From an uncultured Flavobacteriaceae bacterium (GTDB taxonomy: Bacteria > Bacteroidota > Bacteroidia > Flavobacteriales > Flavobacteriaceae): 64,000 bases of DNA. Numbering within the stretch: the first letter of the stretch is position 1; every line of letters starts with the position of its first letter. The stretch lies in assembly GCA_964353005.1 (NCBI GenBank), contig CAYGUC010000008.1, positions 17,579-81,578 on the forward strand, read 5' to 3'. This document shows, one piece after another, positions 24,841 through 51,923 of this stretch. Under the pieces are notes generated by a model. That model was given only the letters and a program-made list of their open reading frames with translations. It did not search any database and was not told where the DNA came from. A program made the position numbers and the translations under genes.

Positions 24841-24855
24841 TGCAACTTTGGTGCA
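24841..24855. promoter_or_regulatory. Palindrome TGCAACTTTGGTGCA, 5 bp upstream of the ATG at 24861 (site 1 of 3)
   Basis: Near-perfect inverted repeat (one mismatch). Nearly identical to the sites at 31060 and 37040. Confidence 0.5.
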
Positions 24856-24860: not shown

Positions 24861-25208
24861 ATGAAAAATATAAAGACTTTCTCTTCCATTATTAGATTGC
24901 CTTTATTGGCATGGGTACTCTTATTGGTGTTTTTAACCAACCCGATAATTGAAGGGGTTCATCATCTTACAATTCTACATTCTGATACTAGTCCAATCTC
25001 TAATGATCTGGAACTACACTCTTCTAATCCAGATTGTATACTATGCGATTTTCTAATAGATAGAAAGGTTCCTTATTTATTATCCAATTTTACCATAATA
25101 GAGGATATTCCAAAAGATGTTATGCATTTCGCACCAAACTTATTGGAAGATTTATACGTATTTGATATTCTTCTATTTCCTTTGGCAAACAGCCCTCCTT
25201 TATCCTAA
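24861..25208 (+). CDS. Small membrane-anchored His/Cys-motif protein (115 aa from the ATG at 24861)
   Basis: N-terminal TM (LPLLAWVLLLVFL), then GVHHLTILHSD...CILCD and a C-terminal SPPLS. Paralogous to 52543-52851. The track start at 24822 is a GTG, and the internal ATG is preferred. Confidence 0.6.
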   Translation: MKNIKTFSSIIRLPLLAWVLLLVFLTNPIIEGVHHLTILHSDTSPISNDLELHSSNPDCILCDFLIDRKVPYLLSNFTIIEDIPKDVMHFAPNLLEDLYVFDILLFPLANSPPLS

Positions 25209-25372: not shown

Positions 25373-26071
25373 GTGCTACAAGCTATTAATTTAACAAAAA
25401 AATATCATAACCACACTGCTTTAGATAATTTAAACTTAACTGTAAATCGAGGAGATATTTTTTGTCTTCTTGGTCAAAACGGAGCAGGTAAAACAACTAC
25501 TATTAATCTTTTTTTGGGCTTTATTTCTCCTTCTAAAGGTAAAGCCCTTATAAATGGGGTTTTAGTTCAACAAAATGATAATGCTACCAAAAAATTCTTA
25601 GCCTATATCCCAGAAGTAGTTATGTTGTATAGCAATTTGACTAGTATAGAAAATCTGGATTTTTTTAGCAGGCTTGCTGGTTTTACATATTCTAAAGAGG
25701 AACTGGAGAAATTTCTGTGGTCTGTAGGATTACCTAACGATGCTTTTTATAAACGTTTAGGGCAATACTCTAAAGGGATGCGCCAAAAAGTAGGTATTGC
25801 TATTGCTATTGCCAAAAATGCAGATGTTTTATTAATGGATGAGCCTACATCTGGATTAGATCCTATGGCGATAAATGAATTTACAGAATTAGTAAAAAAT
25901 TTGAGCAACCAAGGTAAAGTAGTTCTAATCGCTACTCATGATCTTTTAAACGCAGTAGCTATAGGAACCAGAATAGGTATTATGCGTCGGGGTTGTTTGG
26001 TACATGAATTATCTAATGATAATATTAATGCAAACGAGCTTCAAGAAGTGTACTTAGAAACTATTTTATAA
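25373..26071 (+). CDS. ABC transporter ATP-binding protein
   Basis: Walker A (GQNGAGKTT), signature (YSKGMRQK), Walker B (LLMDEPTSGLD). GTG start. Confidence 0.9.
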   Translation: MLQAINLTKKYHNHTALDNLNLTVNRGDIFCLLGQNGAGKTTTINLFLGFISPSKGKALINGVLVQQNDNATKKFLAYIPEVVMLYSNLTSIENLDFFSRLAGFTYSKEELEKFLWSVGLPNDAFYKRLGQYSKGMRQKVGIAIAIAKNADVLLMDEPTSGLDPMAINEFTELVKNLSNQGKVVLIATHDLLNAVAIGTRIGIMRRGCLVHELSNDNINANELQEVYLETIL

Positions 26072-26078: not shown

Positions 26079-27473
26079 ATGTGGCTTATTATAGCAAGTA
26101 AAGAGATCAGACAAGCTTTTGGCAACCAAGTTTTTATTTTGTTGTGCATAATTACCTGGAGTATCCTAAGTATTTCTATTATTAACGGGTTTAAAAATTA
26201 CCAAAACATAAAACAACAACAACAAGACGCTGTAAGTTTATTTCATAATGAACTGTCCAAAAAAGATAGAGATCCGCACTCTGCTGCTCACTTCGGAACG
26301 TATATATTTAAACCTTTTACCCCTTTAAGTTTATATGACCCAGGAGTAACTAATTACAGTGGTTCTACCTATAGAGTAGAAGCACATAAACAATCAGAGA
26401 TGAACTTTGCAAGCCCTCCTGATACTACTACAATCCTTCGTTTTGGAGAGCTTTCTGCAAGTACTGTTTTACAGTTATTGATACCGCTGTTAATTATTAT
26501 TATTTCTTTTTCTTCGATCTCTAAAGAAAAAGAGGCAGGAACTCTTAAAATTATTTTTGCGCAAGGAGTACAACATCGCACTTTGTTATGGGGGAAAATT
26601 TTTGGTAATTATTTTATTATTATCCTAATTATTTTACCTGTTTTTATCTGTACTTTAATAACTGGTATATTTAGTACCGATATGTTCTTAAAAGCTATAT
26701 TATTTATAGTGGCTTATAGTTTCTATTTTTTTATAATTACCAGTATTTGTGTACTAATTTCGTATAGAAGTAAGACTTCTAAAGACTCTTTATTATTTCT
26801 TCTTTGCATCTGGATACTCTCTTGTATTGTTTTTCCTAAACTTATTGCTGGCATTGCTACAACAAAGTACCCTCTTATCTCTTATCATGAGTTTCAAGAA
26901 CAAATAGATCATGATTTTTCTTTTGGAATCCATAATGATGGTACTTATAAGGAGCGTAAAGAAAAAACGGAAGCCAAATTACTTGCTCAATATCAGATAG
27001 ACAGTATTTCTCTTTTACCGATAAATATAGATGGAGCATTACTGCAAGCTTCAGAAGACTATAACAGTAAAGTTTATCAATATAGATCTAAACCTGTTAC
27101 GCAACAAATGGAACGACAAAAACATGTATATAAATTAGCATCCTTTTTTACCCCATATATTTCTATTCAACAAGCTTCTATGGCTTTTGCAGGGACCGAT
27201 TTATATCACCATCACAATTTTCATAAAAAAGCCAGAATATATCGGGATGGTTTCGTAAAAACATTAAATACAGAGCTTACCAAAATTCCAAAAGATCAAG
27301 AACATATTGTAAACACTACTTTTTTAAAAAACATGAAACAGTTTAGCTATAATTTACCTTCTGTACGATTTGTATTCGAAAAGCAATACTTGGTATTTCT
27401 ATCTTTTTTTTACTGGTTGGTAGCACTAATACTAGCAATAGAAATAAGTATTAAAAAGAAAAGCATTTTATAA
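26079..27473 (+). CDS. Large ABC-2-type permease (DUF3526-like as recalled)
   Basis: N-terminal TM, a central cluster of about five TM helices, a soluble segment of about 150 aa and a C-terminal TM. Follows the ATPase with an 8-bp gap. Confidence 0.7.
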   Translation: MWLIIASKEIRQAFGNQVFILLCIITWSILSISIINGFKNYQNIKQQQQDAVSLFHNELSKKDRDPHSAAHFGTYIFKPFTPLSLYDPGVTNYSGSTYRVEAHKQSEMNFASPPDTTTILRFGELSASTVLQLLIPLLIIIISFSSISKEKEAGTLKIIFAQGVQHRTLLWGKIFGNYFIIILIILPVFICTLITGIFSTDMFLKAILFIVAYSFYFFIITSICVLISYRSKTSKDSLLFLLCIWILSCIVFPKLIAGIATTKYPLISYHEFQEQIDHDFSFGIHNDGTYKERKEKTEAKLLAQYQIDSISLLPINIDGALLQASEDYNSKVYQYRSKPVTQQMERQKHVYKLASFFTPYISIQQASMAFAGTDLYHHHNFHKKARIYRDGFVKTLNTELTKIPKDQEHIVNTTFLKNMKQFSYNLPSVRFVFEKQYLVFLSFFYWLVALILAIEISIKKKSIL

Positions 27474-27476
27474 AAT

Positions 27477-28913
27477 ATGAAGACTATTTTTTTATTTGAA
27501 TGGAAAAAGTTAGTTCGAAGTTCGTTAAATATATATCTTCTGGTATTCTTTATCTGTTTGGGAGGCTATAGCATTTATTATGGTTACAGTGTTACAAAAA
27601 AACAAGTCTTGGTTATTCATGATTTAGAAAATCTGTACAAAAAACAAGTACAAACTACCATTAGTTATTTTGATGCAGACACTACTACTAACAAGGGAAA
27701 AGCTTTATATAATAAAGCGACTCAACCAGATTGGATAGAGCATTTAATCACCCCAATTGCTACATTTTATCCCAATTCTTTTTCATCTATGGCTATTGGT
27801 CATCGAGATGTATATCCTTTTTACAAGGAGATTTCTACAAAGGATAATTCTTTATATGTTTTTGATGCTAATATTTCAAATCCAGAAATATTAGCTTCTG
27901 GTAATTTTGATTTATCCTTTGTAATCATCTATTTGATTCCTTTACTTATGATCGTTTTGTGTCATAATGTTATCTCTGAAGAAAAAGAACAAGGAACATT
28001 TATACTAATTAAATCGCAAAGTAATCACTTTCAAAAATTTATATTCTATAAATTACTTTTTAGAGCATTACTCCTTTTAATTCTTACTTCGATACTCAGT
28101 ATAGTTGCTGCATATTGGTCTCCTATAAGTTCTCCTTTATCTATTTTGGATTTATTGTGCTGGCAATTTGTAATGATTTGTTATTTGTTTTTTTGGTTTG
28201 CTGTTTGCTATTTATTTATCTCTTTTCAGAAAAATGCTATTGTTACATCTCTGTATATGATTGGCATATGGTTATTACTAAGCTTTGTTATTCCTTCTCT
28301 TTTTAATTTCTATATAGATATTTCTCACCCTACAGGAATAAAAGCAGATATGGCCTCTGAAAAACGAAAAATAGAAGAAAGTGTTTGGGATCTTGAACCT
28401 AAAGTGCTACTCCAAAAATTTTATAGCCATTATCCTGAATATGATACAGAAAACCCTAACGATACTATAAAATACAATCCTAAACATTTTGTTGCTTATT
28501 ATGATGCTCTCGAAAAACAACTAATACCCATAGCCAAAATACATAAGGATAGAGAAAATGAAAGAAAGGAACTAATGTCTAAACTATCTGATTTCATCCC
28601 CACTTTGAAAATACAAAAAACACTAAATCAAATTGGCAATACGGATTTTAATAGCTACAAATACTTTGAAGAATCTACATTGTCGTTTCAGATAAAATGG
28701 AAAAAATTTATTTATCACTTCATCTTTAAAGATAAAAACCTACAAATAAATGATTACTTAACAATGCCAAAATACCCCAAAGTTGGGTTACAAAAACAGT
28801 ATAAAAAAATTTTAGGAAGTGCAATAACCTTTATTTTACTGGCCTTTATCATAATCTTATTACAAACATACGTAACATACAATTCGAATACATATTTAAC
28901 AATCAAACAATGA
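27477..28913 (+). CDS. Large ABC-2-type permease (DUF3526-like as recalled), paralog of the preceding gene
   Basis: Same architecture as 26079-27473. There is a 3-bp gap upstream and a 4-bp overlap with the downstream receptor gene. Confidence 0.7.
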   Translation: MKTIFLFEWKKLVRSSLNIYLLVFFICLGGYSIYYGYSVTKKQVLVIHDLENLYKKQVQTTISYFDADTTTNKGKALYNKATQPDWIEHLITPIATFYPNSFSSMAIGHRDVYPFYKEISTKDNSLYVFDANISNPEILASGNFDLSFVIIYLIPLLMIVLCHNVISEEKEQGTFILIKSQSNHFQKFIFYKLLFRALLLLILTSILSIVAAYWSPISSPLSILDLLCWQFVMICYLFFWFAVCYLFISFQKNAIVTSLYMIGIWLLLSFVIPSLFNFYIDISHPTGIKADMASEKRKIEESVWDLEPKVLLQKFYSHYPEYDTENPNDTIKYNPKHFVAYYDALEKQLIPIAKIHKDRENERKELMSKLSDFIPTLKIQKTLNQIGNTDFNSYKYFEESTLSFQIKWKKFIYHFIFKDKNLQINDYLTMPKYPKVGLQKQYKKILGSAITFILLAFIIILLQTYVTYNSNTYLTIKQ

Positions 28914-31039
28914 ACAAGCACCTTTTAATAGTCGTATTGACTATAGCAATCCCTTTACAAATTTGGGGTCAAACTCCTAAACAAGATAAAGACGATCCCA
29001 AAAAACCAGTTGAATTATCAGAGGTATTGGTTACTCAAAATAAACGAAAAATAAAAAATGACACCATTTCTAGTACTCTAAAAATAGACACTCCATTGAT
29101 TGAGATCCCTCAAAATATCGTTAGTGTATCCTCTTCGCTTTTAAAAGAGCAAGGAGTATTTGTTCTTCGAGATGCTGCTCGTAATGCAAGTGGTGTATAC
29201 TTTGGATTAAACAACGATGTTTTTGACGGCGCAGGAAATTTATATTTAAGAGGTTTTACTCTTAATGGAATTTTTAGAAATGGGCTCCCCAGTGGTGATT
29301 TTAGAGGATCCCAGGATGATGAAGCAATAATAGATCAAATAGAATTTATTAAAGGGCCCGCAGGTTTTTTAGGATCTACTGGTGAGGCTGGAGGAAAGAT
29401 TAATATCGTTACAAAAACCCCTGGTAATTCTAAAATTTTAAATGCTACACTTACAGGAGGTAGCTACAATTTTTATAGAGCTTCTATCGATATGGGTTCT
29501 AGTATAAAAGAAAAAGGGTTCTCATATCGTTTTAATACAGCCTATAATTATCAACAATATTTTGTAGATATTATGGAGAGTCGTAAATATATTATTGCAC
29601 CTGTTGTACAATATAACTTTACCAAACATACTTCTATCTTAGCAGAATATATTTTAAATAATCAAACTGCTATTTCAGGATCTACTTTTACCAAATTTTT
29701 TCCTGTAGACAAAATTTTAACTGATGACAGAAGAGCTAATTATCTTGCAGACCCTGGATTGCCTAATTCTACTTCTAAATCACAAAACGCCAGAGTTGTT
29801 TTTAAACATGAGTTTAATGACAATTGGAGGATAACTCACCAATCGTCTTATTCTAAAACCCCTGCCGAAACATGGTCTTTTTTATCTGAAGAAACATACA
29901 ATGCTGTAGGATTTGATGAGAACGGAAAAACAAACAGACTCGCATGGAGATCTGTTACAGACAATAAAACTCTATCTACCCAGTTTTTTGTAAATGGAAA
30001 GTTTAATACTGGAGAAAAAATAAAACACAAGATATTAATAGGAACGGAATACGCCATATCTAAGGAATCTGTTTATCAAACTTTTGGACTAAAATCATTT
30101 CCTTTTGATATAAATAATTTACAATATGGATTAGATAGAAATGAACTTTTAGATCAAGAAGCTTTTTTAGATTATAGAGCTAACAACCACTTTTTATCTA
30201 TATATTTTTATAACAATATAAAAATAGGCAAAAAATTAAGTATAGATCTTGGAGGACGATATACCGATAATCAAAATGAAACTATTTTTGATCCTAATGC
30301 TACTACATTTGATCAAGATGCTTTTACCCCCAGAGCAGGTATAACATATTTGATCGACAAAAATACTGCGGTATTTGCACTTTATGACGAAAGTTTTGTG
30401 CCCAGAAGCGGTCAAGACAAACAAGGAAACCTTTTTAAGCCAATACGTGGTCAGGATAAAGAACTGGGAATCAAAAAAAACTGGTTTGATGGGTTATTAT
30501 CTACCTCGGTTACTGCTTTTCATATCTCGAGAAATAATATGGTTACGCAAGATCCTGCTGATCCATTATTTAACAGACAACTAGGGCAGATTGTTAGTAA
30601 AGGTGTTGAAATAGATATCCTAGGTAATATAACCAAAAACATAGCTGTATCTGCTAACTATGCGTATACAAAAGCTACCATAACCAAAGATACAGATCCT
30701 GCTATTGTTGGACAGCTTTCTTCTTTTTCTCCAAAAGAACTAATTAATAGTTGGATACGTTATTCTTTTCCTGCCAATACAATTCGTGGTCTTAGTATAA
30801 GTTTAGGACATACTTCTATTATAAAAAGAGCAACCAATACAGTAGGTGCTTTTTTACCAGACTATACCAAATTTGATGGATCTATTGCTTATACAAAAGG
30901 AAAAATAACTACTCGATTATTACTCGATAATCTTACTGATAAACGATATATCTTAACTGGTGATATTTATGAAGGTAATGCATACTATACAGAAGGAACT
31001 CCTTTTAATTTCAAAATCTCGCTAAGTGTTAAGTTGTAG
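28910..31039 (+). CDS. TonB-dependent siderophore-type outer-membrane receptor
   Basis: Signal peptide, plug-domain motifs (IEFIKGPAGFLGSTGEAGGKINIVTK), size of about 700 aa and a terminal barrel strand ending ...ISLSVKL. Confidence 0.85.
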   Translation: MNKHLLIVVLTIAIPLQIWGQTPKQDKDDPKKPVELSEVLVTQNKRKIKNDTISSTLKIDTPLIEIPQNIVSVSSSLLKEQGVFVLRDAARNASGVYFGLNNDVFDGAGNLYLRGFTLNGIFRNGLPSGDFRGSQDDEAIIDQIEFIKGPAGFLGSTGEAGGKINIVTKTPGNSKILNATLTGGSYNFYRASIDMGSSIKEKGFSYRFNTAYNYQQYFVDIMESRKYIIAPVVQYNFTKHTSILAEYILNNQTAISGSTFTKFFPVDKILTDDRRANYLADPGLPNSTSKSQNARVVFKHEFNDNWRITHQSSYSKTPAETWSFLSEETYNAVGFDENGKTNRLAWRSVTDNKTLSTQFFVNGKFNTGEKIKHKILIGTEYAISKESVYQTFGLKSFPFDINNLQYGLDRNELLDQEAFLDYRANNHFLSIYFYNNIKIGKKLSIDLGGRYTDNQNETIFDPNATTFDQDAFTPRAGITYLIDKNTAVFALYDESFVPRSGQDKQGNLFKPIRGQDKELGIKKNWFDGLLSTSVTAFHISRNNMVTQDPADPLFNRQLGQIVSKGVEIDILGNITKNIAVSANYAYTKATITKDTDPAIVGQLSSFSPKELINSWIRYSFPANTIRGLSISLGHTSIIKRATNTVGAFLPDYTKFDGSIAYTKGKITTRLLLDNLTDKRYILTGDIYEGNAYYTEGTPFNFKISLSVKL

Positions 31040-31059
31040 AAAAATCATGTTAATTAAAA

Positions 31060-31074
31060 TGCAACTTAGTTGCA
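31060..31074. promoter_or_regulatory. Palindrome TGCAACTTAGTTGCA (site 2 of 3); could also serve as the receptor-gene terminator stem
   Basis: Perfect inverted repeat, extendable to aaaatgcaac tta gttgcatttt (31056-31078). Lies between the receptor stop (31039) and the precursor start (31167). Confidence 0.5.
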
Positions 31075-31166
31075 TTTTAATTATTTCTTGCTTATTTTTA
31101 ATCGTTGCAACAAAATGGGATAAGCCGACCCCATTTTTATAAGGCATAATTTAAAAATTATCAAAC

Positions 31167-31364
31167 ATGAAAAATTCAAAGAATAAATTAACATTAGATG
31201 AATTACAAGTAGAAAGTTTTGTAACTAGCATCAGTTCTGAAGTATCACAACATATCGCTGGTGGTATGGGTATAGCTAAGCACCCAACTCATACTGGCAG
31301 AACAGATCGTCATGCAGGATGCACATGCGCAAATCAGCTTCAAGGGCCTGCCTTTGATTTATAA
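31167..31364 (+). CDS. Lanthipeptide-type RiPP precursor peptide (33-aa leader ending GG, 32-aa core)
   Basis: MKNSKNKLTLDELQVESFVTSISSEVSQHIAGG | MGIAKHPTHTGRTDRHAGCTCANQLQGPAFDL. Convergent with the LanC-like gene and adjacent to it. Confidence 0.7.
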   Translation: MKNSKNKLTLDELQVESFVTSISSEVSQHIAGGMGIAKHPTHTGRTDRHAGCTCANQLQGPAFDL

Positions 31365-31371
31365 AAATTAT

Positions 31372-31396
31372 ATGCGGGCTATATTATAGCCCGCAT
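31372..31396. terminator. Bidirectional hairpin terminator between the precursor and the LanC-like gene
   Basis: atgcgggctat / atagcccgcat perfect 11-bp stem with a 3-nt loop, followed by T-rich sequence. Confidence 0.8.
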
Positions 31397-31399
31397 TCT

Positions 31400-33346
31400 T
31401 TATTTAGTCTCTATAAAATTTTGTTCCATAAAATATAATAACTGTTGTATCAGTCTATTCTGTATAGTTTCTTCATCATGCGTTCCTAATTTCTTTTTTA
31501 ACAACTCTATTAAATCATACAAAGTTCTTGGTCTTTTTAAGATATCCAGTAGTAAAGTACTAGATAGATTAAGAGGAAATTCTTCTATATCTTGAAGCCC
31601 TAATCTTAATAAAACAGGGTGTATATCTCTATCGATATACTGATTTTTTATACACATATTTTTATCAAATTTTGGCCATTGCCATTCGCAGTTTATTATT
31701 TTGATATTTTTACTTGTCTGAAATGTATATTTATAAAACAAACTTGGGTCTAGGTTTTTAAATTTAGATAGTTGTTTTATAAAAAAATCATTTTTATGTT
31801 CTCGATAAATGTTATAATTAGAATTCACAAGCATTTCTATAGCAGCACTTTCTAACTTAAAGACATCCTTTGCTATTTTGCTTTTTTCTGCATCTAGTGT
31901 TTTTATAAGGGTTGAAATCTTTCTACCAAAACCACGACTATTAAACCCATACTGTCCATTTTTGTAAATTATATCTACACAAATATTATTACTCTCTAAA
32001 AACCAAACGGTTCGTTTTACATATTTTTCGTAAATATTTTTTTTAAAACACTCCAAAGTCACTTTACTCTCTACAGGAAATTGCTTTTTAGATTTAATTC
32101 TTGGTAGAAGTATCGAGTCTATGTTTTTATCTAATATTTGTAAAAATAAATGTCCTATACCCGAAACACCAACTAACAACGCAGGATCTTGTTTATTTGT
32201 ATACCATCCTGATCCATAAAAACCTGTATCCTTCCTATCCTCTATTACTTTATTTACTAAGTTTTGCACTTCATTTGTTAAGGATTTTTCTCTTAAACCT
32301 CTAGAAGCAGTAAGTAGTAACTCTATCCATGACCCAATACCAGTACTTAAAGTATAATTTGGCTCCTTTATCTCTCTTTTAATATCCGAAATAGTTTTAG
32401 TAATTGCTCTTGTTGCAAAATTTTTATATCTCTTTTTTTTAAGAAACCTGTACGCATTAAGTCTTGATAATCCTATACCAGAATTGCCATGTGCCCAAGT
32501 ATTAACATCTTCTTCATTTTCTAAATAATAAGATAAACCTTGCTCTAAGGATATGCTTTTTATTTTTGGGTTATCAGAAACTTGCATATTAATCCAAGAG
32601 CCCAACGAAGTACTATAATATTCGTCCTCATAAGCAAATGCTTTTTCTGCAATCCATTTTAATTCTGGATAATCCAGAGCCTCTCCTATTTCTAATAAAA
32701 CATGTGCAATACCGCATGCCCCATGCGACATACCAATTAGACTATCTATAGTCTCACTAACATACCCCCATTTTAATCCATATTTTGAAATGCGTGCATT
32801 CTTCAATATTTTTTCTATAAGTATTTTAATTGTTTTTTCTTGGTCGGTATCTTTTGTATAGGTATATAATAATGTTATTACAAATAAATTTCCTGCATTT
32901 CCACTTAATAAATCATCTAATTCTACTTCATTTACAATTCCACTTTTAAGTTCTAAAAACAATGCATTTGCTTTATCTAAATTTAATGAGTTTTCTGTAG
33001 CTTCATATAATTTTACTAAAGCATAGATAACCCCAACTGTTCCTGTATAAAAAGTATAGTACTTAGTAGCGAGTGTTTTTATATGATGAATTGACCAGGA
33101 AATACTTTTTTCTGCGATATGTAAATATTTATCCTCTTTAGTATATTTATATAAGGAAATAAAGAATAAAGAAATTCCGGATACTCCATTATAAATTTCT
33201 TCATTTACTTGACTATAAAGCTCTCCATAAGGTTGCTTATGTAATGTTTCCCAATACAACCCATTTGCATCCTCTTTTGAATTCTTAATTAACTCTTCTG
33301 CTATCCACAATACTTCCTTATATACTATATTTTTTATTTTACGCAT
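31400..33346 (-). CDS. LanC-like (lanthionine synthetase C family) protein with an uncharacterised C-terminal extension of about 230 aa
   Basis: Seven GxxG-type toroid repeats (NGVSGISLF, TGTVGVIYAL, SGNAGNLFV, MSHGACGIAHVL, AHGNSGIGLS, STGIGSWIEL, VGVSGIGHLF). The LanC portion ends near aa 415 of 648. Confidence 0.75.
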   Translation of the reverse strand: MRKIKNIVYKEVLWIAEELIKNSKEDANGLYWETLHKQPYGELYSQVNEEIYNGVSGISLFFISLYKYTKEDKYLHIAEKSISWSIHHIKTLATKYYTFYTGTVGVIYALVKLYEATENSLNLDKANALFLELKSGIVNEVELDDLLSGNAGNLFVITLLYTYTKDTDQEKTIKILIEKILKNARISKYGLKWGYVSETIDSLIGMSHGACGIAHVLLEIGEALDYPELKWIAEKAFAYEDEYYSTSLGSWINMQVSDNPKIKSISLEQGLSYYLENEEDVNTWAHGNSGIGLSRLNAYRFLKKKRYKNFATRAITKTISDIKREIKEPNYTLSTGIGSWIELLLTASRGLREKSLTNEVQNLVNKVIEDRKDTGFYGSGWYTNKQDPALLVGVSGIGHLFLQILDKNIDSILLPRIKSKKQFPVESKVTLECFKKNIYEKYVKRTVWFLESNNICVDIIYKNGQYGFNSRGFGRKISTLIKTLDAEKSKIAKDVFKLESAAIEMLVNSNYNIYREHKNDFFIKQLSKFKNLDPSLFYKYTFQTSKNIKIINCEWQWPKFDKNMCIKNQYIDRDIHPVLLRLGLQDIEEFPLNLSSTLLLDILKRPRTLYDLIELLKKKLGTHDEETIQNRLIQQLLYFMEQNFIETK

Positions 33347-34238
33347 CTAGACTTCTATTTTCTAAACATTTATACAATAAATAAACAAGATAAGCCTCGT
33401 CTGCATTTATGATACCTATACGATTATGTGTTATATGCATAAAACTAGTAGTGATACTCAATTCTACCTTTAAGCTGATTTTTTTTTCTTTGTATCCCTT
33501 ATTTACATTCGCATTTTTTAAAAAATATGTGTTTAACCAAGTATCTTTTTGAAGATTTATTTCAATATCTTTTAAGAATGTAGAGATTACTGGTATCATT
33601 TGTTCTTTGTATACATCAAATTTTTTAGCAAATTCTGAAAGAAAAAATTGCTGCTGCTCTTTTTCTGGTTTAGATACATCATATAAAACAGGAAGCCACT
33701 CTTGTACAAAAAGCTTGCAAGCATTCTTCATTTCCTCAGTACTAAATCTTATACTAACAAAAAAAAGCAAATGCATTTTTATTGCTAATAGAAAGGCTGT
33801 ATTGTCTTTCCAGTTTTTAGAATAGTATGCCAAATTATACAATACAACTTCAGAACTGGATTCAAATTGTTTCTCTGCTTCCTCCATTACATGCACACCA
33901 CCATATCTATTTATCTCAGGAATATAATCCACAAATTGAATAGGATTACATAGATTTTTTTTGTCTTTTATTGTATTTTTTTCTGTAATAGACCAATATA
34001 TTTCGCTTTCTTTTTTCAGTCTTTCTTTCCATTTGTTTTCCTTATCTTTTTCGACTAACAATCTTAGCCTTATATGCGGCCCTCCTTCATTATATCGAAT
34101 AAAAAAGTATTTCGACAAACCTTTTTCTTTTTGCATTTTTTCTATAAAAAGATGAACAAAATCTATAAGAAATTTATTTGCGGATCCTTTATAAAATAAA
34201 TACGCTGAAATCCATATTTGATTACTTGTGTCTATCAT
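33339..34238 (-). CDS. Stand-alone LanB C-terminal (SpaB_C / thiopeptide-type glutamate-elimination) domain protein
   Basis: Signature WISAYLFY...KYFFIRYNEGGPHIRLRL. Size of about 300 aa, with an 8-bp overlap onto the LanC-like gene. Confidence 0.75.
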   Translation of the reverse strand: MIDTSNQIWISAYLFYKGSANKFLIDFVHLFIEKMQKEKGLSKYFFIRYNEGGPHIRLRLLVEKDKENKWKERLKKESEIYWSITEKNTIKDKKNLCNPIQFVDYIPEINRYGGVHVMEEAEKQFESSSEVVLYNLAYYSKNWKDNTAFLLAIKMHLLFFVSIRFSTEEMKNACKLFVQEWLPVLYDVSKPEKEQQQFFLSEFAKKFDVYKEQMIPVISTFLKDIEINLQKDTWLNTYFLKNANVNKGYKEKKISLKVELSITTSFMHITHNRIGIINADEAYLVYLLYKCLENRSLDA

Positions 34239-34240
34239 AA

Positions 34241-36958
34241 TTATTTAAAATACCATTGTACCAAGAGTTCATTAACTGGTTGTTCTTTTAGTGTTTCTGT
34301 ATCTGGAGACATCTCTTCAAAATAGATATACTCCTTGGCTTTTTTAAGTAATTTATTCCATAAAATCATAAGTAATGGGCTATCAAATCGAATATATTGT
34401 GGTTTATAATCGTCTGCCTGACCTTGCTCTTTTGTAGTTGAATTAGCTCGTAGATATAAAAAAATCTGATCAGGAAAATTGTGTTTTTGTTTCCATTGGT
34501 TAATGGATAAAAAATAGTCGGCATCACTTTGTTGCTCTCCTTTTTTTGGGATGGATTCTGTAAGCACAGACCATCGTTTTCTTTTTAAAATAATTTGTTT
34601 ATTATATATCAGTCTAGGGAAATAATAAATTTCCTGTTTTGTAGATGTTTTCTTAGTGTCAAATAGTAATTCTTGTACCGCTTTTTGTATTGGTCTAAAA
34701 CTTATTGTCTGGTCTGGAGAAAAATAGGATAACAGTTGGTATAGTTTTGACCGATGATCTAAAGACTCGAGGCAGAGATCAAATGGCAAAATTCGTTTAC
34801 CTGTAACAGAATGTTTTAAGCATACTTCTTGAATATCTTCATCAAAATATACCCGAATATCTTTTACTGCAATTTGTGATTCTATGGGCAAACTGGTATG
34901 CCCATCAGGAATTTTAATTTCGTGATCTAATAATGGAGGGTGAGAGTTCGCATTAAAATAAGATCCATCACTTAACTCCATAAATAAGGATTCTTTAGAA
35001 TTTTGCACATTATGTGTTTTCAAATCCTTTGTTATATTAGGATTAAAAAGATGCAAAAATCGACCACTTGCTCTTCCCATACCTTGAGAAATGCTATTTA
35101 CAACAACTTGAAAATTATTTTCAACATAAAATACTTGCATAAACATTCCTCGAGAAATCAATGGTGTTTTTCTATTGTTTTTCCATTGTTCCTGCATTGT
35201 TTTTAGAATATTAGTATCTATATGTATTTCATCTTTATTTTTATCAATTATTGGTTTTAAAATACATTTAAAATCTTCGATCCATTTACGATAGGTTTGA
35301 TTATAATTTTCTTGATGTTCATCTATATATCTATCTGTATTATCATTCTTAAGATCTTGTTGGGATTTTTTTATATGTAGATAATATAGATTATAAAAAT
35401 CCAAAAGGCTTATTTCTGCTTTTTTACCGTAATAATCTATATAAAAAGATTGTATTCTGTTTCTTTCTTCTTGAAAACTATCTAATGGCTGTAATAGATC
35501 TATAAGACTATTTATATCTTTGATAGCAGTAGTAAGCAGTGTTTTACTAACCTCTCCTCTCTCCTTTATAAAACTATCTTCATATATTAATTTTTCTGTA
35601 GTAAGTGATGGAAGTACATATAGATGTTTTTTTAATTTTTCTGAAGCAAATAAACTTTTATAGTTTTCTTTATATGCTTTATAATCTTTTTTAAAAATGT
35701 TCATGTTTTCTAGAAAATGCTCAAATAGCATACTAAAATCTTTAAACATTTCTTCCAAAATTGTACTTCTCTCTTTTGTATTAGAGGTAGCATAAATTTC
35801 ACAACATACGTGTTGTTTTTCCAAAACTAAAATCGTTTGTTTTAAAGACTGTGAAGATGATTTTATTTGCCTAAGAAAATTCAGTAATTTCGAACTCCAA
35901 TCTGGATCTATCCCCGAAGTTTTAAAATCAAATTCTAAAAGACCTATTTCTACTAATTTTAATAAATACTCTTTTATTTCTTTAGGATTTCCTGCTATAG
36001 ATTCTTGTAACTTTTCAATGAACTCATACATCCTTAAAGAATCTTTTTGCTTTACTATTTCCAAAAGCAATTGTATTACACCAGTATGAGGTATGTTTTG
36101 AAAAGATTCTAAATTATGAAAATTAATAAGAAAAGATACTTTATCCTCTGTTGTTTGGATTGTTGGGTTAAGCTTTAGATATAAATATTCATTAATTTCG
36201 GGATGTAGAATAAGTAGTGTTTTTAAATAATCAAATATCCCGTTATTTAACCTTATTTTACTCTGTATTTCGCCTTTTGCAAGTGTATAGGCATCTTCTT
36301 TTTCAATTAAATTACACACTCCCAGATTAGTAAAAGTGCTAAAAGGAGAAGTCTTAAAGTACATTCGGGTAAGATATCGTAACAAACTATACTCTAATCG
36401 GATTTCTTTTTTACCAAAAGAGGATACTGCTTTTTTTGAAAATGTATCTAACTGATTGTAAAAAACTTTACTCGATAATCTAACTCCTTTTTGAAAAAGT
36501 TCATTTTTTGATAATTCTTGTACTATACAACGATGCTCTCTAATGGTATCTATATATCTACTATCCCAGTTTATAAGTAGCTGCTCTTTCTTTTCTTTTA
36601 AAACAATATAAAGCTCAAATAAATCCTTATTTTCCTTATTTAATTTTTCTAAAAGTTTAATCCTATGTGTAGGAGTAATATTTCTAGAATTATAAACATC
36701 TCTTTTTATATTAATGAAAAATTGCTTGTCTGAAGGTGAGGAAGCCTCCCCTACTAAAGTGTGTAAATAATTACAAAGCTTATCTTTTAGAGTATCTATT
36801 TCTAATCCTAAAGTATTCAATTCTTTTATAAAACCCTTTACCGAATCATCCCTAAGCCTCTCAAAATCTAAATGATTACCAGAAGCATATCGAAGAAACG
36901 AGTATGGAAAAATTTCAAATTTCTCTAGACAATTAGCAGTATTTTTTTTCATTATCAA
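34241..36958 (-). CDS. Lantibiotic dehydratase N-terminal (glutamylation) domain protein (split LanB)
   Basis: 905 aa. The N-terminal F..FPYSFLRYASG and the internal GMGRASGRFLHLF are typical of Lant_dehydr_N as I recall it. A 2-bp gap separates it from the elimination-domain gene. Confidence 0.7.
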   Translation of the reverse strand: MIMKKNTANCLEKFEIFPYSFLRYASGNHLDFERLRDDSVKGFIKELNTLGLEIDTLKDKLCNYLHTLVGEASSPSDKQFFINIKRDVYNSRNITPTHRIKLLEKLNKENKDLFELYIVLKEKKEQLLINWDSRYIDTIREHRCIVQELSKNELFQKGVRLSSKVFYNQLDTFSKKAVSSFGKKEIRLEYSLLRYLTRMYFKTSPFSTFTNLGVCNLIEKEDAYTLAKGEIQSKIRLNNGIFDYLKTLLILHPEINEYLYLKLNPTIQTTEDKVSFLINFHNLESFQNIPHTGVIQLLLEIVKQKDSLRMYEFIEKLQESIAGNPKEIKEYLLKLVEIGLLEFDFKTSGIDPDWSSKLLNFLRQIKSSSQSLKQTILVLEKQHVCCEIYATSNTKERSTILEEMFKDFSMLFEHFLENMNIFKKDYKAYKENYKSLFASEKLKKHLYVLPSLTTEKLIYEDSFIKERGEVSKTLLTTAIKDINSLIDLLQPLDSFQEERNRIQSFYIDYYGKKAEISLLDFYNLYYLHIKKSQQDLKNDNTDRYIDEHQENYNQTYRKWIEDFKCILKPIIDKNKDEIHIDTNILKTMQEQWKNNRKTPLISRGMFMQVFYVENNFQVVVNSISQGMGRASGRFLHLFNPNITKDLKTHNVQNSKESLFMELSDGSYFNANSHPPLLDHEIKIPDGHTSLPIESQIAVKDIRVYFDEDIQEVCLKHSVTGKRILPFDLCLESLDHRSKLYQLLSYFSPDQTISFRPIQKAVQELLFDTKKTSTKQEIYYFPRLIYNKQIILKRKRWSVLTESIPKKGEQQSDADYFLSINQWKQKHNFPDQIFLYLRANSTTKEQGQADDYKPQYIRFDSPLLMILWNKLLKKAKEYIYFEEMSPDTETLKEQPVNELLVQWYFK

Positions 36959-37039: not shown

Positions 37040-37054
37040 ATGCAACTTTGTTGC
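37040..37054. promoter_or_regulatory. Palindrome TGCAACTTTGTTGCA (site 3 of 3) in the divergent lanB / fur-like intergenic region
   Basis: Perfect inverted repeat. It lies 82 bp upstream of the lanB-N start (minus strand) and 145 bp upstream of the Fur-family gene (plus strand). Confidence 0.55.
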
Positions 37055-37198
37055 AATATATGAATTGTTTTTTAAAATAAATTATCTCTTTTATTGAAAT
37101 GGCATTTATATTATTTATATGTGTAGCCATTAATTATCCATATATTTATCGCACCATAACTTTTATATGCCAATAAATGATTAAATTTACTTTCTGAT

Positions 37199-37654
37199 AT
37201 GAATAAGGAATTTACTAGCTTATTAGAAAAACATCAACTAAGAAAAACGACTCCTCGTTTATCTGTACTTTCTATATTAAAATCCAGAAATACAGCGACT
37301 TCTCAACCAGAACTTGAAGCAATGATCGGAAAAGATGTGGATCGAGTAACTTTATACAGGATTCTTAAAACTTTTGAAGAAAAAGGAATCATTCATAAAA
37401 TACTGGATCTTAACGGAACCGCTAATTATGCAATTTGCCAATCTTCCTGCAAGGAACATGATCATAATGACAATCATGTACATTTTAATTGTACTGTATG
37501 CTTAAATATTTATTGTTTAGAAAACATACAAATTCCAAATATTAAAATGCCATCTGGTTTTGTATCCCATACCACAAATTTTGTATCGTATGGTATCTGT
37601 AAAAAATGTTCTGAAAAAGCAGATCAATATATAGGTTCAAATGATAAAGAATAG
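37199..37654 (+). CDS. Fur-family metalloregulator (Fur/Zur/PerR class not resolvable)
   Basis: Winged-helix region (TTPRLSVLSIL...VTLYRILKTFEEKGIIHK), a His cluster plus CxxC (HDHNDNHVHFNCTVC) and a second CxxC (GICKKC). Confidence 0.85.
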   Translation: MNKEFTSLLEKHQLRKTTPRLSVLSILKSRNTATSQPELEAMIGKDVDRVTLYRILKTFEEKGIIHKILDLNGTANYAICQSSCKEHDHNDNHVHFNCTVCLNIYCLENIQIPNIKMPSGFVSHTTNFVSYGICKKCSEKADQYIGSNDKE

Positions 37655-50723: not shown

Positions 50724-51923
50724 TTATCTTGCTATAGGCCAGTAGTCTTCTTTTGGGAATAATTGTTTGTTCCAAAGTTGAACTTCCAAATCTGTAAGCA
50801 GACAATCCTGTAATTGATTTATGATTTTTTCTTTTTGAAGATATTGCCCAATAAATACCAATTCTATTTTTCTGTCTCCGTATAAAGTATGCCATTCTGA
50901 TTCTATTTGATTTCTATTTTCATTAAAAGCAGCATAACTAACTCGCTCTACAAAAGGCATAGATGCCCACCAAACCCCTGCACTATCGGCTTTAAAAGAT
51001 CCTCCTGCGGTACTCCAAATTAAAGCTTGATCAGACCTTGAAGCTAACCAAAATAACCCTTTGCTTCTAATAATGTTTTGAGGAAAATTTTCATTCAAAT
51101 ACTTTAAAAAACGATCGGGATGAAATGGTTTTTTACTCTTAAATACAAAAGAACCAATACCGTATTCTTCGGTCTCAGGAGTATGTTCGTTTTCAAGTTC
51201 TTTTATCCATCCGGCAGAAGCCTCTGCTTTTTCATAATCAAACAGACCTGTATTGATAATATTTTTAAGCTCAACCTTTGATTCGCTGGCAGGAATGATT
51301 AGAGCCTCGGGATTTAATTTTTGGAGGATAGCATAAAGCTCTTTAAGTTGTTCTTTGGTTATAAGATCAATTTTATTAATAATAATAACATTAGCAAATT
51401 CAATTTGATCGGTAAGCAAATTAACTATGGTTCTTTCATCTCCATCAATATTGGTAAGTGATCTTGTTGTAAGATAATCAGAACTAGAAAAATCTTTTAA
51501 GAAATTAAAAGCATCCACTACTGTTACCATAGTATCTACATAACTAAAACGACTTAAATCTATAGTACCATCTTCACTTTCAAACGTAAAGGTTTGAGCA
51601 ACAGGAACAGGCTCACTTATCCCAGTACTTTCTATCAGTAGGTAATCAAATTTATTTTGTTTCGCTAGCCTTTCAACTTCTACCATAAGATCTTCTCGCA
51701 GTGTGCAACAAATGCAACCGTTAGACATTTCCACTAATTTCTCTTCGGTTCTAGAGAGTGTATTTTCATTTTCAATAAATTGAGCATCAATATTGACTTC
51801 GCTCATATCATTTACAATAACAGCTACTTTTAAGCCTTCTTTATTGTGTAGTATATGATTTAATAATGTAGTTTTTCCAGCCCCCAGAAAACCACTCAAT
51901 ACGGTTACAGGTAGTTTTTTCAT
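50724..51923 (-). CDS. COG0523-family (CobW/ZigA/YeiR-like) metallochaperone GTPase
   Basis: P-loop [12 protein letters not shown], CxCC motif ([11 protein letters not shown]) and a C-terminal CobW_C-like domain. Confidence 0.85.

What the first reader, a model, noticed from the sequence alone, without database searches (positions are those of the whole stretch)
31167..36958. Split-LanB lanthipeptide-type RiPP cluster (precursor, LanB-N, LanB-C, LanC-like) with no protease or exporter
A tightly packed minus-strand operon (2-bp gap, 8-bp overlap) encodes three proteins:
- a 905-aa lantibiotic-dehydratase N-terminal-type protein;
- a separate 299-aa SpaB_C/thiopeptide-type elimination-domain protein (WISAYLFY...FFIRYNEGGPHIRLRL);
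- a 648-aa LanC-like protein.

A 65-aa ORF converges on this operon and shares a perfect hairpin terminator with it. The ORF has a leader-like N-terminus (KLTLDELQVESFVTS...IAGG) and a Thr/Cys-containing core.

Split LanB is established for thiopeptide clusters and, as I recall, for Bacteroidetes pinensin-type clusters. Few Flavobacteriia products have been characterised, so the product is probably undescribed. A GG-type leader normally implies a C39-peptidase ABC exporter. Neither that exporter nor a LanP protease is present in the window.
Basis: partly seen in the sequence, partly recalled or inferred. Interest (0 to 1): 0.8.

Follow-up and report, generated by a model that had tools for sequence, protein, structure and literature searches.

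The report
Zinc-regulated pinensin-type lanthipeptide cluster
This is an Aquimarina version of the known pinensin lanthipeptide gene cluster; its conserved neighbours and operator sites indicate that the whole family is switched on by zinc starvation and probably works as a peptide zinc scavenger rather than as a conventional antibiotic.

Summary
The ORFs, their spacing, the hairpin and the domain hits are all real. The 65-aa ORF matches NCBIfam's pinensin-family leader model (46 bits, cutoff 24), so this is a new Aquimarina member of a known family.

The finding's borders are too narrow. A small membrane protein, an ABC ATPase, two ABC-2/DUF3526 permeases and a TonB-dependent metallophore-type receptor lie directly upstream of the precursor. 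A Fur-family regulator is divergent from lanB. The transporter/receptor module accompanies all 14 pinensin-type loci recovered from Aquimarina, Pedobacter and Chitinophaga, and none of 66 other LanC loci.

A palindrome, TGCAAC-N3-GTTGCA, precedes the precursor, the lanB operon and the transporter operon. It is conserved in all three classes. A blind metagenome scan finds it beside Zur-like regulators, COG0523, ZrgA, ZnuA and DUF4198 genes, so it is a Zur-type box.

All 15 pinensin-type LanC proteins lack the canonical Cys/Cys/His zinc site. A 2026 paper shows that pinensins bind Zn(II) at nanomolar Kd.

Best reading: a Zur-controlled lanthipeptide zincophore system. Zinc binding, transport direction and regulation are untested for this peptide. 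The Aquimarina clusters lack the C39 exporter (pinT) found in relatives.

The parts
24841..24855 (.). Zur-type box 3 (TGCAACTTTGGTGCA, one mismatch). It ends 6 bp before the start codon of the first gene of the transporter operon.
   Evidence: The same site with the same mismatch is in A. muelleri (L001:18501).
24861..25208 (+). Small 115-aa protein with an N-terminal membrane anchor and His/Cys motifs (HHLTILHSD...DCILCD). First gene of the operon, function unknown.
   Evidence: Conserved in A. muelleri at 197 bits. No Pfam hit.
25373..26071 (+). ABC transporter ATPase
   Evidence: PF00005, E 5e-28. Homologues sit in pinensin-type loci and beside tandem boxes in metagenomes at 248-291 bits.
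26079..27473 (+). ABC-2 permease with DUF3526, copy 1
   Evidence: PF12679 and PF12040. Conserved in 13 of the 14 pinensin-type loci; in L004 only copy 2 is seen, at the locus edge.
27477..28913 (+). ABC-2 permease with DUF3526, copy 2
   Evidence: PF12679 and PF12040. Conserved in all 14 pinensin-type loci.
28910..31039 (+). TonB-dependent metallophore-type receptor (Plug plus barrel, no STN signalling domain)
   Evidence: TIGR01783 at 235.5 bits, cutoff 223.5. Pfam Plug and barrel. Closest solved structures are FetA, FhuA, CntO and FoxA. Present in 14 of 14 pinensin-type loci and 1 of 66 others, the latter a weak 25-bit hit.
31060..31074 (.). Zur-type box 1 (TGCAACTTAGTTGCA, exact), 93 bp upstream of the precursor ATG, over the putative -33 region
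   Evidence: 0.07 expected by chance. Conserved position in Aquimarina, Pedobacter, Chitinophaga and L041.
31104..31111 (.). GTTGCAAC, two back-to-back half-sites next to a candidate -7 box (TATTTTTA, 31093-31100), probably at the transcription start
   Evidence: Conserved in the upstream alignments. The promoter assignment is inference.
31115..31134 (+). Conserved 5'-UTR stem-loop (AUGGG-AUAAGCCGAC-CCCAU), followed by the conserved GGCAU motif at 31143-31147
   Evidence: Three of five stem pairs show compensatory changes. 91% of cells are paired against 82% in shuffles (0 of 500 reach it), and slid controls give 23-51%. No Rfam hit.
31167..31364 (+). Precursor peptide. It has a pinensin-type leader ending in AGG and the core MGIAK-HPTHTGRTDRHAGCTCANQLQGPAFDL (3 His, 4 Thr, 2 Cys from HPTHT onward).
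   Evidence: NF038180 at 46.3 bits. It is the only such ORF in the window. Core alignment.
31372..31396 (.). Bidirectional terminator hairpin shared by the precursor and the lanC operon
31400..33346 (-). LanC-like cyclase without the Cys/Cys/His zinc site (A285, S334, T335; His208 kept), with a C-terminal RRE-like domain (residues ~418-648)
   Evidence: Models have pLDDT 92.6 and 88.4. Fold hits are LanCL2, LicM2, MadC and NisC, and TglI, PqqD and TbiB1 for the C-terminal domain.
33339..34238 (-). Split LanB, glutamate-elimination domain (PinB2-like)
   Evidence: PF14028, E 3e-36. TIGR03891 at 108.7 bits, cutoff 48.45.
34241..36958 (-). Split LanB, glutamylation domain (PinB1-like)
   Evidence: PF04738, E 8e-36, covering residues 152-834.
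37041..37055 (.). Zur-type box 2 (TGCAACTTTGTTGCA, exact) in the divergent lanB/zur intergenic region
   Evidence: Conserved in L001:6221 and L085:9768.
37199..37654 (+). Fur-family metalloregulator, inferred to be Zur
   Evidence: PF01475. More than 600 homologues at 57-74% identity. Homologues lie next to the tandem box in 19-23 metagenome loci. The His-rich sensing motif and both CxxC pairs are conserved.

Best explanation
The region is a pinensin-family class I lanthipeptide system. Its real extent is about 24841-37654, and it belongs to a zinc-starvation (Zur) regulon.

Proposed mechanism:
1. When zinc is plentiful, the Fur-family regulator (37199..37654) binds three TGCAAC-N3-GTTGCA boxes. 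This represses the precursor gene, the lanB1-lanB2-lanC operon (and itself), and the small-protein/ABC/TonB-receptor operon.
2. Under zinc starvation these are derepressed. The split LanB glutamylates and eliminates Thr residues in the His-rich core. The LanC-like protein has lost its own zinc site, so it does not need the scarce metal. It carries a fused RRE-like leader-binding domain and forms up to two methyllanthionine rings.
3. The peptide leaves the cell, most plausibly through the ABC-2/DUF3526 transporter, because this genus has no pinT.
4. Outside the cell the peptide binds Zn(II) through the conserved HPTHT...TD...H motif.
5. The zinc-peptide complex is taken back up through the TonB-dependent receptor.

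Shown here: domain identities, family membership, synteny, conservation of the operator and its regulon, and loss of the LanC zinc ligands. Taken from the literature: nanomolar Zn(II) binding by pinensin A and B. Inferred: regulation by zinc, zinc binding by this particular peptide, the transport directions, zinc-independent cyclisation, and how the leader is removed.
For: Family membership:
- NF038180 at 46.3 bits against a cutoff of 24, plus the split LanB and LanC domains.

Synteny:
- All 14 loci with a pinensin-type precursor carry the TonB receptor and at least one DUF3526 permease. These loci come from Aquimarina, Pedobacter and Chitinophaga, and include Chitinophaga sp. YR627, whose core equals published pinensin per PMC9248904. 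The specific ATPase homologue is seen in six of them.
- Among 66 other LanC loci there is only one weak (25-bit) receptor hit and no DUF3526.
- L085 shows the same layout in a third Aquimarina species.

Operator:
- The window has 2 exact sites and 1 one-mismatch site against 0.07 expected.
- Pinensin-type loci hold 16 exact and 38 one-mismatch sites in 323 kb. Other LanC loci hold 1 and 3 in 1.11 Mb. The single exact outlier sits 57 bp upstream of a pinensin-like precursor.
- Sites lie upstream of the precursor and in the divergent intergenic regions in all three classes.

Regulon:
- A blind metagenome scan for tandem boxes gave 98 non-periodic loci (585 kb).
- Flanking genes by Pfam: FUR 17, cobW/COG0523 9, MerC 6, ZrgA 5, His-rich P-type ATPases 3, TonB receptors 2, ZnuA 1, DUF4198 1.
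- 29 Zur homologues and 18 COG0523 genes occur in these loci, most within 1.7 kb of the box. Zur-box-COG0523 divergent pairs occur in low-GC contigs.

LanC:
- All 15 pinensin-type LanC proteins have Cys to Ala at ligand 1 and His to Ser/Thr at ligand 3. All 14 comparison LanC proteins keep Cys/Cys/His.

Core peptide:
- (H/E)(P/E)THT..(T/S)(D/E), at least 3 His and at least 2 Cys in all 16 precursors.

Receptor:
- It passes the TonB-siderophore cutoff. Solved relatives include the pseudopaline (zincophore) receptor CntO.

Literature:
- Pinensin A and B bind Zn(II) with Kd 3.5 and 6.3 nM, about 20- to 120-fold tighter than Cu(II) (PMC13532221).
Against: - Nothing has been measured for this peptide. 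Its C-terminal half (GCTCANQLQGPAFDL) differs from pinensin (LCTTIICA), so ring topology and metal affinity may differ.
- The regulator is called Zur only from regulon inference. Its sequence does not discriminate between Fur-family types: the best PDB hit is a 'ferric uptake regulation protein' (6dk4, E 2.5e-6), and E. coli Zur scores only E 1.6e-3. No NCBIfam equivalog cutoff is reached.
- The window's own COG0523 gene (50724..51923) has no box at 3 mismatches or fewer in 1.2 kb upstream.
- ABC-2 transporters with one ATPase and two permeases are also the architecture of LanFEG immunity pumps (own knowledge). The direction of transport is unknown, and no inner-membrane importer is in the cluster.
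- No leader protease or C39 exporter lies within 64 kb.
- Whether PinB1/B2/C make pinensin has 'not yet been confirmed' experimentally (PMC9680876).
- Pinensins are antifungal, so zinc binding could serve as a weapon rather than for nutrition.
Confidence: 0.6

Rival explanations
1. It is a conventional antagonistic lanthipeptide, antifungal or antibacterial like the pinensins. The ATPase and two ABC-2 permeases act as a LanFEG-like self-immunity or export pump. Zinc limitation is only the environmental cue for making a weapon, possibly one that kills by starving competitors of zinc. The receptor is not needed for nutrition.
For: - Pinensins were isolated as antifungals and are moderately cytotoxic (PMC13532221; PMC10125368).
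- One ATPase with two ABC-2 permeases is the LanFEG subunit pattern (own knowledge; domains).
- The 2026 paper attributes beta-lactam synergy to extracellular zinc depletion.
Against: - A TonB-dependent receptor of the metallophore-importer class is strictly linked to the cluster in three classes. That is hard to explain for a pure weapon.
- The receptor/DUF3526/ATPase module also occurs directly behind a Zur homologue and box without lan genes in view (L148).
- The DUF3526 permeases are about 470 aa, roughly twice the size of LanE/LanG (own knowledge).
- This rival overlaps with the best explanation, since zinc withholding and zinc acquisition can coexist.
Confidence: 0.22
2. The peptide is a signal. 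The receptor and ABC proteins 'perceive and import' it for autoinduction, as originally suggested for Cpin5321-5324, and metal binding is incidental.
For: The published annotation of BGC0001392 calls these genes 'perception and import' (PMC10112250). Many class I lantibiotics autoinduce (own knowledge).
Against: - The receptor has no N-terminal STN signalling domain (only Plug and barrel).
- No ECF sigma/anti-sigma pair or two-component system is in the cluster.
- All three promoters carry the same box, which elsewhere fronts COG0523, ZrgA and ZnuA genes.
Confidence: 0.05
3. The system scavenges, or responds to, a metal other than zinc (copper, iron, nickel, cobalt or manganese). The regulator is then a Fur, Nur or Mur rather than a Zur.
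For: - Sequence comparison cannot assign the regulator. Weak hits to PerR, Zur and Fur models are all far below their cutoffs.
- Pinensins also bind Cu(II) at 0.1-0.4 uM.
- The receptor is of the general siderophore type.
Against: - The genes next to the box are the hallmark zinc set: COG0523, ZrgA, ZnuA, DUF4198 and His-rich ATPases. No recognisable iron-uptake or heme genes are among the top families.
- Pinensin prefers Zn(II) about 20- to 120-fold over Cu(II).
Confidence: 0.08
4. The Aquimarina cluster is a decaying or cryptic remnant. Without pinT and with a LanC lacking its catalytic zinc, no mature product is made.
For: There is no C39 exporter or protease in 64 kb, and the LanC zinc ligands are lost.
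Against: - All ORFs are intact and conserved at 69-98% identity in at least four Aquimarina-type sequences, with operators and terminator preserved.
- The same ligand loss occurs in the Chitinophaga cluster associated with isolated pinensin.
- Class III cyclase domains work without zinc ligands (PMC7268733).
Confidence: 0.05

Closest known systems
Pinensin biosynthetic gene cluster of Chitinophaga pinensis DSM 2588 (MIBiG BGC0001392: pinA, pinB1, pinB2, pinC, pinT, Cpin5321-5324)
   Same: - Leader family NF038180.
- Split LanB.
- A long LanC that lacks a complete zinc site.
- The HPTHT..TD..H..C core.
- An adjacent ATPase, two DUF3526 permeases and a TonB receptor.
- The same palindromic operator.
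   Different: - No pinT (C39 ABC exporter) and no export genes like Cpin5330-5332 in the window.
- The Fur-family regulator is inside the cluster.
- The residue before HPTHT is Lys, not Ser, so no N-terminal pyruvyl group is expected.
- The Cys pattern is C-T-C with an 11-residue tail, instead of C-T-T-x-x-C.
- The second zinc-ligand Cys is Ser here but retained in Chitinophaga.
Opine-type zincophore systems (pseudopaline cntOLMI in Pseudomonas aeruginosa; staphylopine)
   Same: The logic matches: a Zur-box-controlled operon that combines biosynthesis, an exporter and a TonB-dependent receptor. CntO is among the closest solved relatives of this receptor (system knowledge from PMC11481552 and PMC10393844 as listed, and own knowledge).
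   Different: The chelator here is a ribosomal, thioether-bridged peptide of about 2-3 kDa, not a small opine. The biosynthetic enzymes are unrelated, and the exporter is of the ABC-2 type.
Methanobactin (RiPP chalkophore with the TonB receptor MbnT)
   Same: It is a ribosomally made, modified peptide metallophore that is re-imported through a dedicated TonB-dependent receptor encoded in the cluster (own knowledge).
   Different: Methanobactin binds copper, not zinc. It uses oxazolone/thioamide chemistry made by MbnBC, not lanthionine. Its regulation is different.
Class III lanthipeptide synthetase (LanKC) cyclase domains
   Same: They have the LanC fold without the Cys/Cys/His zinc ligands, yet are cyclisation-competent (PMC7268733). 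They appear among the fold hits.
   Different: Here the cyclase is a stand-alone class I-type protein that works with a tRNA-dependent split LanB. By sequence it is closer to LanM cyclase domains (PMC7268733).
Thiopeptide-type split LanB (TIGR03891 elimination protein)
   Same: The glutamylation and elimination domains are separate polypeptides.
   Different: There is no azole-forming or [4+2] cycloaddition machinery, and a LanC-like cyclase and a Cys-containing lanthipeptide core are present.

Membership tests
Class I lanthipeptide cluster | LanB dehydratase with both the glutamylation domain (PF04738) and the elimination domain (PF14028) | tested here: met
   Both are present, on two polypeptides, at E 8e-36 and 3e-36.
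Class I lanthipeptide cluster | Stand-alone LanC cyclase (PF05147, alpha/alpha-barrel fold) | tested here: met
   PF05147, E 2e-49. The model (pLDDT 92.6) matches LanCL2, MadC and NisC.
Class I lanthipeptide cluster | LanC catalytic zinc site (Cys-Cys-His) | tested here: not met
   The residues are A285, S334 and T335, against WCHG and LCHG in LicM2 and in 14 canonical relatives. The general-acid His208 is kept.
Class I lanthipeptide cluster | Precursor with a leader and a Ser/Thr- and Cys-containing core | tested here: met
   The core has 4 Thr and 2 Cys.
Class I lanthipeptide cluster | Dehydration and thioether rings in the product | not testable with these tools
   This needs mass spectrometry. 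Literature reports two methyllanthionine rings for pinensin (PMC10125368).
Pinensin family | Leader matching NCBIfam NF038180 | tested here: met
   46.3 bits against a cutoff of 24.
Pinensin family | Split dehydratase (pinB1/pinB2) plus pinC | tested here: met
   The homologues in the authentic-core locus L017 score 457, 160 and 211 bits.
Pinensin family | Conserved core motif HPTHT..TD..H..C | tested here: met
   It is present in all 16 family precursors, with minor substitutions (E for the first H in Pedobacter; HETHT and S-E in L041).
Pinensin family | pinT (C39-peptidase ABC exporter) in the cluster | tested here: not met
   It is absent from the window, L001 and L085. It is present in L002, L017 and L024.
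Pinensin family | Cpin5321-5324-like transporter and receptor genes next to the cluster | tested here: met
   The equivalence to the Cpin locus tags is inferred from the description in PMC10112250, not from sequence.
Zur regulon | A shared palindromic operator in the promoters, also found at hallmark zinc-starvation genes and at the regulator's own gene | tested here: met
Zur regulon | The regulator is a Zur by a curated sequence model | tested here: inconclusive
   It is in the Pfam FUR family only. The Zur, PerR and Fur equivalogs all score far below their cutoffs.
Zur regulon | Zinc-dependent DNA binding and derepression under zinc starvation | not testable with these tools
   This needs EMSA or footprinting and expression assays.
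Zincophore system | The secreted product binds Zn(II) with high affinity | not tested
   This is shown only for pinensin A and B (Kd 3.5 and 6.3 nM; PMC13532221). The His-rich motif is conserved here.
Zincophore system | A dedicated outer-membrane receptor imports the metal complex and supports growth in low zinc | not testable with these tools
   A receptor of the right class is present and strictly linked, but its function is untested.
LanFEG-type immunity transporter | One ATPase plus two ABC-2 permeases that confer producer self-protection | tested here: inconclusive
   The subunit pattern matches. However, the permeases carry DUF3526, are about 470 aa, and the module also occurs without lan genes behind a Zur box (L148).

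The most novel reading that the evidence does not exclude
Pinensin-family lanthipeptides are the first ribosomal-peptide zincophores. The system is a Zur-repressed unit in which a His-rich thioether peptide is made by enzymes that have themselves dispensed with zinc (a LanC without its zinc site, analogous to the zinc-free paralogues typical of Zur regulons). The peptide is exported, captures Zn(II) at nanomolar affinity, and is recovered through a dedicated TonB-dependent receptor. The reported antifungal and beta-lactam-potentiating activities would then be side effects of zinc withholding. The previously undescribed TGCAAC-N3-GTTGCA box would be the Zur operator of Bacteroidota and of some other lineages.
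Probability: 0.5. Interest if true: 0.8.

Novelty: new member of a known kind. Interest (0 to 1): 0.6.

Why it matters
As a gene cluster this is one more pinensin-type locus. The comparative evidence gathered around it, however, turns an open question into concrete experiments. That question is what pinensins, and the many silent Bacteroidota class I lanthipeptides, are for.

- It predicts the inducing condition (zinc starvation), the regulator, and three operator sites with exact coordinates.
- It predicts an uptake receptor to knock out.
- It identifies a cyclase that should work without zinc.

If the model is confirmed:
- it would add ribosomal peptides to the known zincophores;
- it would explain the antifungal and metallo-beta-lactamase-countering activities as zinc withholding;
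- it would give a simple way to wake up these clusters in culture;
- it would define a Zur box for a phylum in which I found none described.

Tried and rejected
- **Leader regex.** My first regex for more precursor genes was too strict and found nothing. The corrected scan finds only the one precursor.
- **Rfam.** A search of the precursor's upstream region and terminator gave only sub-threshold chance hits.
- **Assigning the regulator's metal by sequence.** NCBIfam and PDB comparisons are inconclusive.
- **Regulator neighbourhoods.** In Mucilaginibacter and Arcticibacter the neighbouring genes are housekeeping genes and gave no metal clue. The only signal was a one-mismatch box 100 bp upstream in Mucilaginibacter.
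- **LanC C-terminal domain.** A profile search against PDB sequences found nothing. Only fold comparison worked.
- **Precursor homologue search.** It returned just six close relatives.
- **Literature.** Nothing was found for DUF3526, for LanC zinc-ligand loss in Bacteroidetes, for a TGCAAC-type Zur box, or for any functional link between zincophores and lanthipeptides or between TonB and pinensin. The original pinensin paper and the Pedobacter lusitanus structure paper are not held.
- **A box upstream of the window's COG0523 gene.** I expected one and found none.
- **Periodic metagenome hits.** I first labelled 22 of them CRISPR-like. They are 41-bp tandem arrays.
- **Small-protein resemblance.** The similarity between the two small membrane proteins is weak (E 0.008) and is not used as evidence.
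- **ECF-sigma -35 element.** I considered this reading of TGCAAC and rejected it. Both half-sites are conserved as a palindrome, and the site sits beside Fur-family genes.

Full report

Yes. The minus-strand operon holds ORFs of 905 aa (34241..36958), 299 aa (33339..34238) and 648 aa (31400..33346), with a 2-bp gap and an 8-bp overlap. A 65-aa ORF (31167..31364, +) converges on it. Pfam gives Lant_dehydr_N (E 8e-36), Lant_dehydr_C (3e-36) and LANC_like (2e-49). NCBIfam gives TIGR03891 for the 299-aa protein. The palindrome at 31372-31396 folds at about -19 kcal/mol on both strands, with z-scores of -4.1 and -5.8, so a shared bidirectional terminator is plausible. The LanB-N start may be ATG 36952 rather than TTG 36958.

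**2. What family is it?**

The 65-aa ORF matches NCBIfam NF038180, 'pinensin family lanthipeptide', at 46.3 bits against a cutoff of 24. It is the only such ORF in the window. The closest LanC relatives are from Aquimarina: 98% identity to an unnamed assembly, 83% to A. muelleri and 69% to strain MAR_2010_214. UniRef already names the MAR_2010_214 precursor a pinensin-family lanthipeptide.

**3. The unit is larger than the finding.**

Upstream of the precursor, on the same strand, lie five genes:
- a 115-aa membrane-anchored protein (24861..25208);
- an ABC ATPase (25373..26071);
- two ABC-2/DUF3526 permeases (26079..27473 and 27477..28913);
- a TonB-dependent receptor (28910..31039), which passes the TIGR01783 siderophore-receptor cutoff.

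A Fur-family regulator (37199..37654) is divergent from lanB.

I fetched 80 genomic loci encoding LanC relatives and probed them with the window's proteins.
- All 14 loci with a pinensin-type precursor carry homologues of the receptor and of at least one DUF3526 permease. The specific ATPase homologue is visible in six of them; the Pedobacter loci are cut at the locus edge on that side. These loci are A. muelleri, nine Pedobacter and four Chitinophaga.
- Among the 66 other loci there is only one weak (25-bit) receptor hit and no DUF3526 hit.
- One of the 14 is Chitinophaga sp. YR627, whose core is identical to published pinensin (PMC9248904).
- A third Aquimarina species repeats the window's layout exactly (L085).

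This linkage is not new. [quoted passage not shown]

**4. The missing exporter is a real difference.**

Pedobacter and Chitinophaga clusters carry a ~730-aa gene directly upstream of lanB1. In L002 it has Peptidase_C39, ABC_membrane and ABC_tran domains. In the window, that protein matches only two unrelated ATPase domains. No C39 or S8 domain occurs in any window ORF of 120 aa or more. How the Aquimarina leader is removed is unknown.

**5. A conserved operator.**

TGCAAC-N3-GTTGCA occurs exactly at two sites and with one mismatch at a third, against 0.07 expected by chance:
- 31060, 93 bp upstream of the precursor ATG;
- 37041, in the lanB/regulator intergenic region;
- 24841 (one mismatch), ending 6 bp before the first gene of the transporter operon.

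The same sites recur in all three classes of Bacteroidota, often in tandem. Pinensin-type loci hold 16 exact and 38 one-mismatch sites in 323 kb. Other LanC loci hold 1 and 3 in 1.11 Mb. The single exact outlier lies 57 bp upstream of a precursor with a pinensin-like SHETHT core.

**6. Which regulator and which metal?**

The window's regulator has more than 600 relatives at 57-74% identity. In Mucilaginibacter and Arcticibacter the orthologue stands alone, so it is a general regulator and not a cluster-specific one. Its sequence does not reveal the metal it senses.

I therefore scanned metagenomes for tandem boxes. Twenty-two hits are 41-bp tandem arrays and were set aside. In the other 98 loci I took the first gene on each side of the box, 107 proteins in all. 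Pfam assigned them as follows:

| Family | Members |
|---|---|
| FUR | 17 |
| cobW / COG0523 | 9 |
| ABC_tran | 8 |
| MerC | 6 |
| ZrgA | 5 |
| His-rich P-type ATPases (E1-E2_ATPase) | 3 |
| TonB receptors | 2 |
| ZnuA | 1 |
| DUF4198 | 1 |

Probing the same loci with the window's proteins gave 29 regulator homologues and 18 COG0523 genes in 585 kb, most within 1.7 kb of the box. Regulator-box-COG0523 divergent pairs occur in low-GC contigs. The regulators share an invariant His-rich motif, and all full-length members share two CxxC pairs.

This is the signature of a Zur regulon. The link between COG0523 and zinc is established knowledge; ZrgA, ZnuA and DUF4198 are zinc-uptake families by their Pfam descriptions and the papers listed. 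I found no published description of this box.

One point does not fit. The window's own COG0523 gene (50724..51923) has no box upstream.

**7. A cyclase without zinc.**

Aligned to LicM2, the window's LanC has WAHG where the canonical motif is WCHG, and LSTG where it is LCHG. Across the family:
- all 15 pinensin-type LanC proteins have Ala at ligand 1 and Ser or Thr at ligand 3;
- ligand 2 is Ser in the two Aquimarina sequences and L002, Val in the eight other Pedobacter and retained in Chitinophaga;
- all 14 comparison proteins keep Cys/Cys/His;
- the SHG histidine is kept throughout.

The fold is a confident LanC barrel (pLDDT 92.6). Class III cyclase domains also lack these ligands (PMC7268733). 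In a Zur regulon, a zinc-free version of a zinc enzyme is the expected pattern. That interpretation is inference.

The extra C-terminal ~230 residues fold confidently (pLDDT 88.4). They best match TglI (E 8.5e-5, TM 0.52), then PqqD, TbiB1 bound to its leader peptide, and the RRE region of MadB. This suggests a fused leader-recognition element.

**8. The peptide.**

All 16 family precursors share (H/E)(P/E)THT..(T/S)(D/E), at least three His, and two Cys (three in L041).

Pinensin has two methyllanthionine rings and an N-terminal pyruvyl group (PMC10125368). It binds Zn(II) with Kd of 3.5-6.3 nM, against 129-420 nM for Cu(II) (PMC13532221). That paper suggests a metal-scavenging role but does not mention TonB, Zur or the gene cluster.

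The Aquimarina core is HPTHTGRTDRHAGCTCANQLQGPAFDL. It keeps the His motif but has Lys rather than Ser before it, and a C-T-C arrangement with a long tail. Its rings may therefore differ.

**9. The receptor.**

Its closest solved relatives are FetA, FhuA, the pseudopaline receptor CntO and FoxA. It has no STN signalling domain, which argues against a 'perception' role.

**10. Synthesis.**

The best-supported model is a Zur-repressed lanthipeptide zincophore system, with confidence about 0.6.

Rivals:
- a weapon with LanFEG-like immunity (0.22);
- a metal other than zinc (0.08);
- a signalling system (0.05);
- a decaying remnant (0.05).

The first rival overlaps with the main model.

As a locus this is a new member of a known kind. 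The Zur control, the box and the family-wide loss of the LanC zinc site appear to be undescribed in the literature I could search, and they make the function directly testable.

Noticed in passing
window 31093-31147; also L001, L002, L003, L007, L015-L024, L041 and L085 upstream of their precursors: The precursor's 5' region is conserved across three classes: a candidate -7 box, GTTGCAAC, a 5-bp stem with the loop AUAAGCCGA(A), and an invariant GGCAU motif. Three stem pairs show compensatory changes. The loop GCC could pair with the downstream GGC to form a pseudoknot, but this is unproven. There is no Rfam family and the function is unknown; it could be an mRNA stabiliser or a riboregulator.
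   Followed up: partly
window 31400-32095 (LanC residues ~418-648): The C-terminal extension of LanC has no Pfam or PDB sequence match, yet it folds confidently and resembles TglI, PqqD and TbiB1-type RiPP recognition elements. The same extension is present in the ~650-700-aa canonical (WCHG) LanC relatives.
   Followed up: yes
window 48440-51923 (-) and 52543-53063: A COG0523 GTPase, an ABC ATPase, a MacB/FtsX permease and a 146-aa ORF form a second putative metal-related operon. No TGCAAC-type box lies upstream of it. A different palindrome, AGTAAC-TTTT-GTTACA, sits at 53048-53063. A 102-aa ORF (52543..52851) weakly resembles the small protein at 24861..25208 (E 0.008).
   Followed up: partly
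L096, L138 and 20 other metagenome loci: These loci hold tandem arrays of a 41-bp unit (12-18 copies in the two examined), and each unit contains a perfect TGCAAC-ACT-GTTGCA box. They are not CRISPR arrays. Their meaning is unknown.
   Followed up: partly
L148:2854-10000; also L115, L095, L125 and L139: In L148, a Zur homologue and a tandem box are followed by a TonB receptor, a DUF3526 permease and an ABC ATPase, with no lanthipeptide genes in the stretch held. In the other loci a close ATPase homologue follows the box. The module may therefore act on its own, for example to pirate a neighbour's peptide.
   Followed up: partly
L002:18598-20598 and L002:1830-4235: The Pedobacter MAG cluster lies next to a TraG/YWFCY conjugative coupling protein, so it may sit on an integrative element. 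It also has a second outer-membrane barrel gene (OMP_b-brl_3), preceded by two boxes, upstream of pinT.
   Followed up: no
L041:9616-9924: A Bacteroidota MAG has an exact box 57 bp upstream of a precursor with a pinensin-like core (SHETHTVKSEDKLHDCC). Its LanC keeps the canonical zinc ligands and no receptor was seen in the flank. It may be an intermediate form.
   Followed up: partly
window 37781-40036 (+): A 751-aa right-handed beta-helix protein lies just downstream of the regulator. It is conserved there in A. muelleri but not in strain MAR_2010_214, Pedobacter or Chitinophaga. ABC-2 permeases paired with a periplasmic beta-helix protein recall NosDFY (own knowledge). The link was not tested.
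   Followed up: no
window 17160-20107 (-): A 468-aa protein with an N-terminal Hcp/TssD domain is followed by a 177-aa ORF and an ORF with a weak, below-cutoff HNH_5 match. This looks like a type VI secretion effector-type module.
   Followed up: no
window 50-10901 (+): This is a chitin/GlcNAc utilisation locus: a SusC-like barrel, SusD, a glucosamine-6-phosphate isomerase/deacetylase fusion, a GH20 hexosaminidase and a CBM5/12 protein.
   Followed up: no
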